Shown here: positions 34,470 through 49,075 of the stretch, one piece after another
How positions within the stretch are numbered: position 1 is the stretch's first letter
Layout: each line of letters begins with the position of its first letter
From: Octopus vulgaris
Lineage: Eukaryota
Assembly: GCA_951406725.2 (NCBI GenBank)
Contig: OX597835.1
Coordinates: 41,912,001-41,976,000, forward strand
Length of the DNA stretch: 64,000 nucleotides
Direction: 5' to 3'
Made by a program: the position numbers and the translations under genes
Notes under the pieces: generated by a model
What the model was told of the DNA's origin: nothing
The model's database searches: none
The model's input: the letters and a program-made list of their open reading frames with translations, nothing else

Positions 34470-34768
34470 AACAGACTGGAATTGTTAGCCCATCTCTTGT
34501 AATTTCGATCAATTGTATCTTGTCCTCCCTCTTGTATAGAAGTGTGGCTACAATCCAGCCTACTGCTACTTCTGGGGGGGATGCATTTTTTTTTTTCCGG
34601 GATGAAGGTAAAAATAAAATATTTCCACTTTGCAAGTTCGAGTCGAGTACTCCCTTGCACACTCCGTTGACTCGAACCTTGCTTCTATTGTGGCAAATTT
34701 ACCGCCTCTGATTAGATACCTTTCATAGTTGCACCAATACACTTTTCGAAGGTGCTTTCCTTCATGTG
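34470..34768 (-). pseudogene. Decayed ORF1 homolog, downstream part (target of the array insertion)
   Basis: Minus-strand pieces HMKESTFEKCIGATMK / YLIRGGKFATIEARFESTECAREYST / PPEVAVGWIVATLL align in order with the array protein VEIAEIEKCLGDIMD / YVSRGKKFGTVEVRCATEEIAASLAT / PPEVKTEWLATAIL. Confidence 0.8.
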
Positions 34769-35079
34769 ATTTTATTACTACCCACAAGGGGCGAACATAG
34801 ATGGGACAATACAATCGGGGAACTTAAAATAAGAAAGCGAATGACAAGAAAAGGAAAAAATAAAAGTAAAAAATGACATATGAAGGAATATTTACAATGA
34901 GATGTAAATGCCCACTCGATCCCCGGAATCGAGAGGTTACATTTTCGTCACATATATTTCACAAAATTTTCTTTTTTCTCTTCTTTCTTCTCTTTCTTCT
35001 CACAATTCTATACATATTCTATAATAGTTTTCACTTCTCTAAAGTCCATCACTGAGCCCTCAGGCGGCCGCTATCTCAC

Positions 35080-36413
35080 TCAAACCTTCGTGTAAAATGT
35101 TACACTCTCACCGGCAGCTCTGAGGAACTCAGCGACTCTTTCTTCGGGGATTAGAGCAGTCTCCTGCCACTGATCGGTCATCCTGTTGACCCACACATGT
35201 CCCTCCGTATTACTTGTCAAATCCTTCATTTCAGGGCAGAAATGGAAGGTTACTAACTTGTAGAAGCAGTAATCTTGTTTCCGTCCTACGTTTTCCTTCA
35301 TTTTTCTTTTCGGGCTTATTTCTTCCTTGTTCTCCTCTCTTTGTTTCTCTCTTTCTCTCTTTTTGCCTTCTTTTCTTTCTCCTTCCTTCTCTTGTCTTTT
35401 TGGTTCTTTGTCTGTTCTCTCTTTCTCTCGTGTTTTATGTTCCTTTTCTTTTTCCTTTTGTGTGCCGTCTTTTCTTTTCGTTTGATTCTGATCTCTCTCT
35501 TGTTTTTTTCCTGTTGTTTCTTTTTCCTTTTTTTTTTCCTGACTCTGTTTTGGTTCTATTTCTTTCTTTTCTTTTATTTCTTTTTCCTTCATTGACTTAT
35601 TATTTCCTTTCTCTTGTTGTTTTGTTTCCTTTTCTATGTTTTCTTTTTCATTTACCGTATTCTTCTTTTCTTCGAGTTCCTGCTCGCACTCCGCTACGAA
35701 TTCGTATAACGGGCACTCTTTTTTAATGTGCCCCCTTGTCCCGCACAAGTAGCAGTTTGGCTTTCTTCCCTCTACAATTACACTGAGGGTTTTCTCATCT
35801 TCAATTTCTATTCTGTAGGGGAACCTTTCAATGTCCTCTTTTGTGGCCATCAAACACAGTTCTACCCCATATCCTCTCCAGTTTATCGCGTTGGACTCCT
35901 TAAAGGATTCCACCTCCACTTCCTCTTCTGCTGCTCCTAGAATAGCTGTTGCCAGCCATTCTGTTTTTACTTCTGGGGGTATATTCGGGATTTTAACCCG
36001 GACCCCTCTTCTTCCCTTGTATGAGGGCCACATTATAAATGTTTCCGCTCTTAGTACAGTGGTAGCCAGTGAGGCTGCAATTTCTTCCGTTGCACATCTC
36101 ACCTCCACCGTACCAAATTTCTTGCCTCTACTCACGTAGGTCGATTTCCCCATTATGTCTCCCAGACATTTTTCGATTTCTGCTATCTCCACTCTTGCCA
36201 GTTTCTTTGTATTTTTGTCTTGGGTTCTATATGTTACAGTCTTGTTTTCTTTGTCCTCTTTTGCTTTCGCGGGGGGATTAGCTTCACGCTATCACCCTCC
36301 CTTTTGAATAGCTTTTCATATTCTTTGAGTTTACTCTTCTCAAAGAAAACATCCTTCACGATTATCGACGAATCATTATTTTTCTTTCCCGTGACCCCCG
36401 CGTAAGTCGCCAT
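35080..36413 (-). pseudogene. Unit 1 ORF1/Gag-like zinc-knuckle protein, diverged variant with premature stop
   Basis: ATG at 36413, frame change near 36271-36276, CYLCGTRGHIKKEC knuckle. TGA at 35080-35082 replaces the CGA of other copies, and a second stop (TAG) follows. Confidence 0.75.
36234..36413 (-). CDS. 59-aa N-terminal ORF (MATYAGVTGK...KLIPPRKQKRTKKTRL*) of unit 1, not in the supplied ORF track
   Basis: ATG in a good context (gtcATGG). Open in all 8 units (also 38015-38194, 39795-39974, 41576-41755, 43355-43534, 45134-45313, 46911-47090, 48691-48870). Overlaps the main ORF in the -1 frame. Confidence 0.65.
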   Translation of the reverse strand: MATYAGVTGKKNNDSSIIVKDVFFEKSKLKEYEKLFKREGDSVKLIPPRKQKRTKKTRL

Positions 36414-36794
36414 GACTAGAGGGTCAATTCACCTTCTTCGGAAGGTTTCCACACGTGGAGGCAAACGCCTCGCGCGATAATAATCACTTTACACAACAAA
36501 ATTTCAACGTCTAATCACAGATAACAACACGCAAATTGATTTCCGACGTGTGATTTTATTACTACCCACAAGGGGCGAACATAGAGGGGACAATACAATC
36601 GGGGAACTTAAAATAAGAAAGCGAAATGACAAGAAGGGAAAAAATAAAAATAAAAATGACAAATGAAAGAATATTTACAATGAGATGCAAATGCCCACTC
36701 GATCCCCGGAATCGAGAGGTTACATTTTCGTCACATATAGTTCACAATTTTTTTTTTCTTTTTTCTCTTCTTTCTTCTCTCTCCTCTCACAATC

Positions 36795-46869: not shown

Positions 46870-47471
46870 TCTTGCCAGTTTCTTTGTACTTTTGTCCTGG
46901 GTTCTATACGTTACAGTTTTGTTTTCTTTGTCCTCTTTTGCTTTCGCGGGGGGATTAGCTTCACGCTATCACCCTCCCTTTTGAATAGCTTTTCATATTC
47001 TTTGATTTTACTTTTCTCAAAGAAAACATCCTTCACGATTATTGCCGAATCATTATTATTCTTTCCCGTGACCCCCGCGTAAGTCGCCATGACTAGAGGG
47101 TCAATTCACCTTCTTCGGAAGGTTTCCACACGTGGAGGCAAACGCCTCGCGCGATAATAATCACTTTACACAACAAAATTTCAACGTCTAATCACAGATA
47201 ACAACACGCAAATTGATTTCCGACGTGTGATTTTATTACTACCCACAAGGGGCGAACATAGAGGGGACAATACAATCGGGGAACTTAAAATAAGAAAGCG
47301 AAATGACAAGAAGGGAAAAAATAAAAATAAAAATGACAAATGAAAGAATATTTACAATGAGATGCAAATGCCCACTCGATCCCCGGAATCGAGAGGTTAC
47401 ATTTTCGTCACATATAGTTCACAATTTTTTTTTTCTTTTTTCTCTTCTTTCTTCTCTCTCCTCTCACAATC

Positions 47472-48649
47472 TCACACGTATTCCATAATACTTTTCAAGT
47501 CTCTAAAGTCAATCACTGAGCCCTCAGGCAGCCGCTCTTTCACTCGAACACCCGTGTAAAAAATTACACTCTCTCCAGCTGCTCTGAGGAACTCAGCGAC
47601 TCTTTCTTCGGGGATCAGAGCAGTCTCCTGCCACTGATCAGTCATCCTGTTGACCCACACATGTCCCTCCATACTACATGTCAATTCCTTCATTTCGGGG
47701 CTGAAATGGAAGGTTATTAACTTGTAGTAATCTTGTTTCCGTCCTACGTTTTCTCTCGTTTTTCTTTTCGGGCTTATTTCTTCCTTGTTCTCCTCTCTTT
47801 GTTTCTCTCTTTCTCTCTTTTTGCCTTCTTTTCTTTCTTCTTCCTTCTCTTGTCTTTTTGGTTCTTTGTCTGTTCTCTCTTTCTCTCGTGTTTTATGTTC
47901 CTTTTCTTTTTCTTTTGTGTGCCGTCTTTTCTTTTCGTTTGGTTCTGTTCTCTCTCTTGTTTTTTTCCTGTTGTTTCTTTTTCCTTTTTCTTTTCCTGAC
48001 TCTGTTTTGGTTCTATTTCTTTCTTTTCTTTTATTTCTTTTTCCTTCGTTGACTTATTATTTCCTTTCTCTTGTTGTTTTGTCTCCTTTTCTATGTTTTC
48101 TTTTTCATTTACCGTATTCTTCTTTTCTTCATTTTCCTTCTCATACTCCGCCATGAATTCATATAACGGGCACTCTTTTTTAATGTGCCCCCTTGTCCCG
48201 CACAAGTAGCAGTTTGGCTTTCTTCCCTCTACAATTACACTGAGGGTTTTCTCGTCTTCGATTTCTATTCTATAGGGGAACCTTTCAATGTCCTCTTTTG
48301 TGGCCATCAAACACAGTTCTACCCCATATCCTCTCCAATTTACTGCGTTGGACTCCTTAAAGGATTCCACCTCCACTTCCTCTTCTGCTGCTCCTAGAAT
48401 AGCTGTTGCCAGCCATTCTGTTTTTACTTCTGGGGGTATATTCGGGATTTTAACCCGGACCCCTCTTCTTCCCTTGTATGAGGGCCACATTATAAATGTT
48501 TCCGCTCTTAGAACAGTGGTAGCCAGTGAGGCTGCAATTTCTTCCGTTGCACATCTCACCTCCACCGTACCAAATTTTTTTCCTCTACTCACGTAGGTCG
48601 ATTTATCCATTATGTCTCCCAGACATTTTTCGATCTCTGCTATCTCCAC
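47472..48649 (-). pseudogene. Unit 8 ORF1, same 1-bp deletion as units 5 and 6
   Basis: 291-aa and 73-aa pieces. Confidence 0.75.
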
Positions 48650-49005
48650 TCTTGCCAGTTTCTTTGTACTTTTGTCCTGGGTTCTATACGTTACAGTTTT
48701 GTTTTCTTTGTCCTCTTTTGCTTTCGCGGGGGGATTAGCTTCACGCTATCACCCTCCCTTTTGAATAGCTTTTCATATTCTTTGATTTTACTTTTCTCAA
48801 AGAAAACATCCTTCACGATTATTGCCGAATCATTATTATTCTTTCCCGTGACCCCCGCGTAAGTCGCCATGACTAGAGGGTCAATTCACCTTCTTCGGAA
48901 GGTTTCCACACGTGGAGGCAAACGCCTCGCGCGATAATAATCACTTTACACAACAAAATTTCAACGTCTAATCACAGATAACAACACGCAAATTGATTTC
49001 CGACG

Positions 49006-49075
49006 TGTGTTCAAATCTTCTTTTTTCTCTATATTGTATACTTTATAGACAATAGTCTTTTCTTTAATTTAATTT
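49006..49075 (-). pseudogene. Decayed ORF1 homolog, upstream part (continuation of 34470-34768)
   Basis: Minus strand KEKTIVYKVYNIEK../RRFEH resembles the array's KENKTVTYRTQDKSTKKLAR. It joins in frame to HMKESTFEKCIG when the array and one TGTG are removed. Confidence 0.7.

What the first reader, a model, noticed from the sequence alone, without database searches (positions are those of the whole stretch)
34470..49075. The array landed inside a decayed homolog of its own ORF1, in the same orientation
Seen: both flanks translate on the minus strand to a degenerate protein colinear with the array ORF1. Right flank: KEKTIVYKVYNIEK../RRFEH. Left flank: HMKESTFEKCIGATMK / YLIRGGKFATIEARFES / PPEVAVGWIVATLL. 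Deleting the array plus one TGTG restores ...AGA TTT GAA CAC ATG AAG GAA AGC... in frame. Inference: this defines the empty site and a 4-bp duplication. It also suggests the family, or its helper endonuclease, prefers related elements as targets. Established: many Tx1-clade elements are sequence-specific, some targeting other transposons. One locus cannot exclude chance.
Basis: partly seen in the sequence, partly recalled or inferred. Interest (0 to 1): 0.8.

Follow-up and report, generated by a model that had tools for sequence, protein, structure and literature searches.

The report
LINE family targets Helitron-captured LINE fossil
The eight-copy array is a short, ORF1-only retrotransposon that, with a full-length partner that likely mobilises it, sits genome-wide at one fixed site inside a roughly 1,000-copy Helitron-type repeat, and that site is a captured piece of a dead related retrotransposon, so one jumping gene's stolen cargo likely became another's landing pad.

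Summary
Observation confirmed, interpretation revised. The two flanks are halves of one ~1.0-kb high-copy repeat with Helitron ends. The genome holds 966 exact empty sites and 123 filled ones. The ORF1-like part is 78% identical in protein to an old, dead LINE family (F) and only 35-38% to the array's own ORF1. It is a captured cousin, not the array's own family. The array element (A) is ORF1-only, under purifying selection (dN/dS about 0.1), and shares its 3' tail with a 5.3-kb endonuclease-RT LINE (B). 43 of 48 A loci lie in this Helitron. A, B and other ORF1-only families form mixed arrays of up to 22 units, because each head rebuilds the target. Independent insertion fits better than hitchhiking. 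The real duplication is likely 12-15 bp; the window's 4 bp is probably a remnant. No A insertion lies inside a live relative's ORF1, and a host variant lacking most of the ORF1 is also used, so recognition is likely of a DNA motif, not kinship. Tx1-like LINEs targeting DNA transposons are known; a Helitron-amplified LINE fossil as target was not found in my searches.

The parts
49006..49554 (-). 5' half of the Helitron-type host repeat; starts A|TCTTTATATATAAAA at 49554 inside a TA run
49006..49081 (-). Captured LINE-F ORF1 piece upstream of the site (KEKTIVYKVYN.. RRFEH), including the purine-rich run before the site
49006..49009 (+). TGTG (CACA on the element strand) at the 5' junction; likely remnant of a longer duplication
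36549..49005 (-). Seven young ORF1-only units (family A), 0-0.4% from their nearest neighbour in the array and 0.46-0.52% from the nearest copy at another locus; likely local amplification
34765..36548 (-). Eighth, older-type unit, 4.9% from the other seven and 1.2% from a copy at another locus; a separate insertion
36795..38069 (-). Example main ORF1 frame (424 aa stop to stop): N-terminal domain, CCHC knuckle, charged region; no RT. In all 8 units the frame from the first ATG breaks after 59 aa in a C-run whose length varies among copies
36553..36600 (-). 3' tail (..GCCCCTTGTGGGTA..AATAAAAT) shared with the autonomous partner B, 47 nt at 91-94%
34765..34768 (+). TGTG at the 3' junction; the target continues TGAAGGAAAGCACC
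34481..34764 (-). Captured LINE-F ORF1 piece downstream of the site (MKESTFEKC.. YLIRGGKF.. PPEVAVGWIVATLL.. IEITRDG)
34301..34330 (-). Host 3' end: hairpin GACCCG-N7-CGGGTC, then CTAG|T

Best explanation
The array is an ORF1-only retrotransposon (family A) sitting at a fixed site in a high-copy Helitron-type repeat whose middle is the captured 5' end of an old, dead LINE (family F), and it likely gets there by borrowing the endonuclease-RT of a 5.3-kb Tx1-like partner (B) that shares its 3' tail and its site. Shown: host ends, the F origin of the cargo, the site, the shared tail, and mixed arrays. Inferred steps: (1) a Helitron captured F's 5' UTR and about 190 codons and multiplied them to over 1,000 copies, with later internal deletions; (2) B's endonuclease nicks at ..GAAGATTTGAAC^AC(A/C)TGGAGGAAA and primes reverse transcription on RNAs bearing the shared tail; (3) a second nick 12-15 nt downstream duplicates the motif, but the RNA's own target-like head can overwrite the 5' copy, leaving only about 4 shared bases as in this window; (4) each insertion leaves target-like junctions, so A, B and the D, D2 and E families stack into mixed arrays; (5) local tandem duplication adds near-identical runs, as in 7 of the 8 units here.
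For: 966 exact empty sites against 123 filled ones, controls 0. 43 of 48 A loci are in the host; 1 is unresolved, 1 is in another repeat, 3 are elsewhere, all 3 at ACATG. Of 110 A tails: 61 are followed by A, 32 by B, 11 by host, 2 by E, 4 by other. B has endonuclease, RVT_1 and zf-RVT, and its best solved relative is L1 ORF2p, E 6e-57. Hosts of A copies under 1% apart differ by a median 4.0%, with only 2 of 95 pairs under 1%. Cargo against F: 79% DNA over 799 bp, 78% protein. A-lineage ORF1 dN/dS is 0.07-0.12 in 14 of 15 comparisons, 0.31 in one. The host's A/C allele is echoed at the inner A|B junction in 5 of 5 C-hosts against 1 of 12 A-hosts, p 0.001 (hand tally; test in 87). Host ends: A|TC in 9 of 10 and CTAG|T in 16 of 18 ends found among 29 copies; similar hairpin plus CTAG|T at 14 of 20 Rep-helicase loci.
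Against: No biochemistry: the nick positions and trans-mobilisation are inferred. Only 4 of 103 full-length A copies have a frame of 440 aa or more from the ATG, and none of the window's do; homopolymer assembly errors cannot be told from real breaks. A sits next to B far more often than equal choice among sites predicts (32 B against 11 naive host, while about 63% of 123 filled sites are B/E-type against 966 empty), and A and B distances are correlated across 28 pairs (Mantel rho 0.39, p 0.0002), so some co-mobilisation is possible. At least one complex array is shared by two loci (L192, L241). Seven of 11 A copies abutting naive host share 4-5 bases or fewer with the target. No autonomous Helitron with the host's exact ends was seen.
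Confidence: 0.82

Rival explanations
1. Kin-attack origin: B's ancestor evolved to cut the ORF1 of rival LINE F, and the Helitron later multiplied that site.
For: The motif is native F coding sequence (RFEHLEEST) and near-matches exist in F copies. F is now rare and dead: 6 copies at 68-82%. F has a related 3' tail.
Against: The 5 F copies aligned at the site in DNA, and the sixth in protein, are all uninterrupted there. F copies differ from the motif at 2-4 positions. Sister families use a deletion variant of the host, an unrelated repeat, or a SINE-like repeat.
Confidence: 0.12
2. Composite transposition: A rides in cis on read-through A-B transcripts, so many arrays move as one RNA.
For: 32 A-to-B junctions. 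Mantel rho 0.39. Rare junction variants are shared across A and the downstream B or E head in 10 of 12 cases, against 4 of 11 at naive host, p 0.036 (hand tally). L192 and L241 share a complex structure.
Against: In 14 of 28 pairs the nearest A has a B that is 13-25% different. The inner junction base follows the host allele (p 0.001). In multi-A loci, 40 of 78 units have their nearest relative at another locus.
Confidence: 0.2
3. Hitchhiking: one filled Helitron was copied by rolling-circle transposition, so there is no site specificity.
For: The host is mobile and carries cargo; a few loci share structure (L131/L145, L153/L159, L192/L241).
Against: Hosts are about 4% apart where A copies are under 1% apart; host and A distances do not covary (rho -0.12). 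Five families in different orders fill the same base.
Confidence: 0.03
4. Tyrosine-recombinase integration of circles through a 4-bp CACA core (DIRS or Crypton-like).
For: One CACA sits at every junction in the window.
Against: The partner sharing tail and site encodes endonuclease-RT, not a recombinase. 5'-truncated copies exist. The junction 4-mer varies (CACA, CACC, CACG, AACA).
Confidence: 0.02

Closest known systems
Tx1-Mar LINEs and SINEU in crocodilians (Kojima 2015, PMC4494074; passages and section 16 read)
   Same: Tx1 families and their non-autonomous passengers insert at fixed positions of a high-copy non-autonomous DNA transposon (Mariner-N4_AMi); tandem copies arise by sequential insertion around a duplication; hitchhiking was considered and rejected.
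   Different: Here the host has Helitron ends; the site is coding sequence captured from a related LINE; the passengers are ORF1-coding 1.7-1.9 kb elements, not snRNA-headed SINEs; arrays reach 22 units and mix five families.
Xenopus Tx1L in Tx1D (as cited in PMC4494074; the original paper was not held)
   Same: A LINE that is specific for one site in a non-autonomous DNA transposon.
   Different: The host there is piggyBac-type; no LINE-derived target or ORF1-only passengers are mentioned in the passage seen.
HAL1, half-L1 (PMC5753468, passages)
   Same: Non-autonomous LINE derivative encoding only ORF1p; arose several times.
   Different: HAL1 is mammalian L1-derived and, from recall, dispersed; A, D, D2 and E have CCHC-knuckle ORF1s, are site-specific and form arrays.
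Drosophila HeT-A (recalled, no call)
   Same: ORF1-only element in head-to-tail mixed arrays with RT-coding partners.
   Different: HeT-A is telomeric and jockey-related; these arrays are interstitial, and one-sided growth was not established here.
Non-autonomous Helitron1-type repeats with captured fragments (recalled)
   Same: 5' TC, 3' hairpin plus CTAG, inserted between A and T, foreign cargo.
   Different: The cargo is a LINE 5' end that serves as a retrotransposon target.

Membership tests
Tx1 clade (partner B) | ORF2 with AP-type endonuclease, RT and C-terminal zinc finger, L1 group | tested here: met
   Pfam Exo_endo_phos, RVT_1, zf-RVT; best PDB hit L1 ORF2p E 6e-57 against R2 1e-24
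Tx1 clade (partner B) | RT phylogeny places it in Tx1 rather than L1 proper | not testable with these tools
   No named Tx1 references in hand; 27 of 30 homologs unnamed. Filed as 'Tx1-like' only.
Tx1 clade (partner B) | Target preference: over 20% of flanks in one repeat (criterion in PMC4494074) | tested here: met
   43 of 48 A loci; 123 filled sites, about 63 of the first 100 with B/E-type tails (hand count). B's own flank fraction was not censused.
Tx1 clade (partner B) | ORF1 with a CCHC knuckle (feature recalled) | tested here: met
   zf-CCHC in A above cut-off, weak in B and D; the CX2CX4HX4C motif is seen in all
Tx1 clade (partner B) | Target-site duplication of defined length | tested here: inconclusive
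   Shared runs of 12-15 nt at many loci and 3-5 nt at others; no clean 5'-truncated insertion with both junctions among 30 loci
ORF1-only non-autonomous LINE (HAL1-like) | ORF1 present, no ORF2 | tested here: met
ORF1-only non-autonomous LINE (HAL1-like) | 3' tail shared with an autonomous LINE | tested here: met
   47 nt at 91-94%; tails compared
ORF1-only non-autonomous LINE (HAL1-like) | ORF1 kept functional | tested here: inconclusive
   dN/dS about 0.1 between lineages, but only 4 of 103 copies have a long frame in this assembly
HAL1 proper | Derived from mammalian L1 | tested here: not met
   CCHC-type ORF1; invertebrate repeat context; works like HAL1, is not HAL1
Non-autonomous Helitron (host) | 5' TC after A | tested here: met
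   9 of 10 ends found among 29 copies
Non-autonomous Helitron (host) | 3' hairpin then CTAG before T | tested here: met
   16 of 18 ends found among 29 copies
Non-autonomous Helitron (host) | Autonomous Rep-helicase element with matching ends | tested here: inconclusive
   150 listed PF14214 matches over cut-off; 14 of 20 fetched loci have a similar but not identical hairpin plus CTAG|T (part of that output was cut)
Tyrosine-recombinase elements (DIRS, Crypton) | Recombinase-coding partner with the same ends | tested here: not met
   The partner found encodes endonuclease-RT; no separate search for a recombinase element was run

The most novel reading that the evidence does not exclude
A LINE lineage evolved an endonuclease that cuts the ORF1 of a rival LINE (F) and helped drive it extinct. 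A Helitron then captured F's 5' end and copied the cut site over a thousand times, creating a self-renewing nursery in which at least four ORF1-only parasites and their autonomous helper now stack into arrays of up to 45 kb.
Probability: 0.12. Interest if true: 0.82.

Novelty: new variant of a known kind. Interest (0 to 1): 0.55.

Why it matters
It shows three transposon layers feeding each other: a dead LINE supplies the sequence, a Helitron multiplies it, and a living LINE group uses it as a harmless landing site. How AP-endonuclease LINEs gain and switch target sites is an open question. This genome holds close relatives (B and B', 92-97% identical) on different targets, plus host variants with and without the site, so the question becomes testable by comparison and by endonuclease assay. 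ORF1-only elements under purifying selection suggest ORF1p is needed in cis. For annotation, such loci look like satellites or are mis-split by repeat libraries.

Tried and rejected
One-sided (5') array growth: pooled position against age gave rho 0.37, p 0.0008, but units are not independent and the per-array sign test was 10 of 16, p 0.45; B is not consistently older than its upstream A. Not established. Protein database searches with the host frame: no hit among longer proteins; 7 weak hits at 38-45%. The source family was found inside the genome instead. Right flank alone: not significant. 5'-truncated insertions to measure the true duplication: none usable in 30 loci. Sequencing runs: 24 listed, no RNA holder listed; nothing is concluded on expression. 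Whether this particular locus is empty in other individuals remains untested. Earlier scan notes: none. Literature: 9 searches; none listed a Tx1 target inside a Helitron or a LINE-derived target; the phrase 'inserted into Helitron' had 0 occurrences in the 12 listed of 486 papers. Subscription journals and Repbase reports are not searched, and supplements were not read, so an entry there is possible. PMC9004415 (passages) added nothing. The one search count of runs over all 123 junction pairs mixes like-with-like pairs and was not used as evidence.
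Full report
The window has eight head-to-tail units of 1,777-1,784 bp at 34765-49005 on the minus strand, with one CACA at each junction and at both outer ends. Each unit carries one ORF1-like frame with a CCHC knuckle and no RT. The left flank matches that protein at E 4.8e-6, above all 200 shuffles; the right flank alone does not (131 of 200 shuffles reach its score). A natural uninterrupted host copy with an open frame across the site aligns at 37% over 114 aa, E 1e-24, on both sides of the junction.

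The flanks are one repeat. A search with the left flank gave 1,874 candidates. Of the 29 best other copies, 24 run straight into the right flank at the exact junction, 4 are filled at that base by related elements, and 1 was not scored. Exact patterns give 966 empty sites and 123 filled 3' junctions, controls 0. The repeat spans 34301-49554 here, 1,013 bp without the array. Among 29 copies, 9 of 10 5' ends found read A|TC and 16 of 18 3' ends found read hairpin plus CTAG|T. The genome has many Rep-helicase matches (150 listed), and 14 of 20 fetched loci end in a similar hairpin plus CTAG|T (part of the output was cut). I call the host a non-autonomous Helitron-type repeat; its exact autonomous partner was not seen.

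The ORF1 piece is captured cargo from another family. A longer host variant keeps about 560 more bases, with a 5' UTR, a start codon and an open frame of up to 180 aa through the site; 29 of 30 copies fetched were empty. This cargo matches an old LINE family, F, found at 6 loci: 79% DNA identity over 799 bp, ending where the cargo ends, while F continues into a knuckle and an endonuclease-RT ORF2. In protein the cargo is 78% identical to F, 35-38% to A and 36% to B. The target motif is native F coding sequence. All F copies are uninterrupted at the site (5 aligned in DNA, the sixth in protein).

The partner. Filled sites revealed B, a 5.26-kb element with ORF1 and an ORF2 holding endonuclease, RT and zf-RVT domains; its best solved relative is L1 ORF2p. 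B shares a 47-nt tail with A at 91-94%, and the ORF1-only families D, D2 and E end in the same kind of tail. The only close named homolog of B's ORF2 is an Argonauta hians protein at 50%, so the animal is inferred to be an octopod. Tx1 membership by RT tree could not be tested. A's ORF1 shows dN/dS of 0.07-0.12 against relatives in 14 of 15 comparisons, 0.31 in the most distant. Against this, only 4 of 103 full-length copies have a long frame from the ATG and none in the window does; the first break lies in a C-run of variable length, so assembly error is possible.

Census. An exact tail pattern occurs 142 times. I examined 128; 110 belong to A at 48 loci, and the other 18 were dropped (B subfamily, E, or no recognised element upstream). 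What follows an A tail: A 61, B 32, host 11, E 2, other 4. With outer ends completed, 43 of 48 loci including the window are in the host; one of these rests on a host fragment 120 bp away, and two are in the deletion variant. One is unresolved, one is in another repeat, and three are elsewhere, all three at ACATG. The largest array has 22 A units and one B. Hitchhiking is unlikely: A copies under 1% apart sit in hosts a median 4.0% apart, with 2 of 95 pairs under 1%. In multi-A loci, 40 of 78 units are closer to a copy at another locus, 37 to a neighbour, 1 tied, so both repeated insertion and local duplication occur. In the window, seven units are 0-0.4% from each other and one is 4.9% away: at least two insertions, then likely local amplification.

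The duplication. Element heads begin with a target-like motif, so each junction rebuilds the site. Shared runs between head and target reach 12-15 nt at several loci (for example L124, L148, L193, L150, and L165 at the second site). The host's A/C allele recurs at the inner A|B junction in 5 of 5 C-hosts against 1 of 12 A-hosts (hand tally; p 0.001); L147 repeats a rare allele and L158 does not match. Rare motif variants recur on both sides of A in 10 of 12 cases with a B or E head downstream, but A heads match the target in only 4 of 11 cases at naive host, the window being a mismatch (p 0.036). My reading, inferred: a 12-15 bp duplication whose 5' copy can be overwritten by the RNA's own head. 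D elements join 14 nt upstream and lose the bases between, which fits homology-guided 5' joining.

Is kinship the signal? Probably not. None of the 106 A tails abutting a recognised repeat enters the inside of a live relative's ORF1. A host variant lacking about 290 bp of the cargo (141 exact junctions) is used by family E at 10 of 20 loci fetched; it keeps the purine-rich run upstream. A B subfamily at 92-97% uses a different repeat with no ORF1 similarity. One F copy (L176) sits in a SINE-like repeat (label from recall). So recognition is likely of a short DNA motif that happens to come from F and was made abundant by the Helitron. An older kin-attack origin is not excluded.

Unexplained: A is followed by B at 32 junctions and by naive host at 11, although B/E-type tails fill about 63% of 123 sites against 966 empty ones (hand count of the first 100 rows). 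A and B distances correlate (rho 0.39), yet 14 of 28 nearest-A pairs have B copies 13-25% apart. Head-homology preference, later B insertion behind A, and co-mobilisation may all contribute. One-sided growth was tested and not established.

Prior knowledge. PMC4494074 (passages and section 16) reports Tx1-Mar LINEs and SINEU passengers inserting at fixed sites of a non-autonomous Mariner, with tandem copies from sequential insertion, and cites Tx1L in Tx1D. PMC5753468 (passages) defines HAL1 as ORF1-only. PMC13282606 (passages) lists 13 recently active L1-Tx1 families in an octopus; its main text has no occurrence of 'target' or 'nested'; supplements were not read, and I do not claim it is the same genome. 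Nine searches listed no Helitron-borne or LINE-derived Tx1 target; Repbase reports and subscription journals are outside the library. Verdict: a real, genome-wide, site-specific system; a new variant of a known kind; interest 0.55.

Noticed in passing
L231, L232, L234, L235, L238, L230, L182 (3' flanks): A B subfamily (92-97% to B, A-type tail) inserts at a different fixed site, ..AAAAACTGAACTTTCACC|AACTGAATACTC.., in another repeat whose flanks are 89-97% alike; about 200 bp further lies mariner-like sequence (label from recall). L186 and L190 show an A sub-lineage at a nearby site of what looks like the same repeat.
   Followed up: partly
L192 and L241: Two loci on different contigs share the same complex D-A-deleted B-B order with 0.3-0.6% divergence; co-duplication or composite retrotransposition.
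   Followed up: partly
L151:908-2563 (minus), L308:1986-2354, L310:1956-2196: Host repeat copies in tandem or partial tandem, as expected of rolling-circle copying.
   Followed up: no
L176:6150-9650 (minus): The dead F element, with a 16-19 bp duplication in a SINE-like repeat, ends right beside the 5' end of a host Helitron copy; probably chance.
   Followed up: partly
L234, 63 bp after the tail: A roughly 350-bp near-perfect palindromic insertion (MITE-like) inside the third target repeat.
   Followed up: no
G000: Many Rep-helicase frames of 1,500-1,744 aa with identical scores, suggesting a recently active Helitron family.
   Followed up: partly
window 19604-20209 and about 49960-50500: Fragments resembling other LINE ORF2 C-terminal regions (recalled; not searched).
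   Followed up: no
window 36798-38069: ESM Atlas look-alikes of the ORF1 N-terminal part include ZCCHC3 RNA-binding-domain clusters at 0.90; a lead only.
   Followed up: partly
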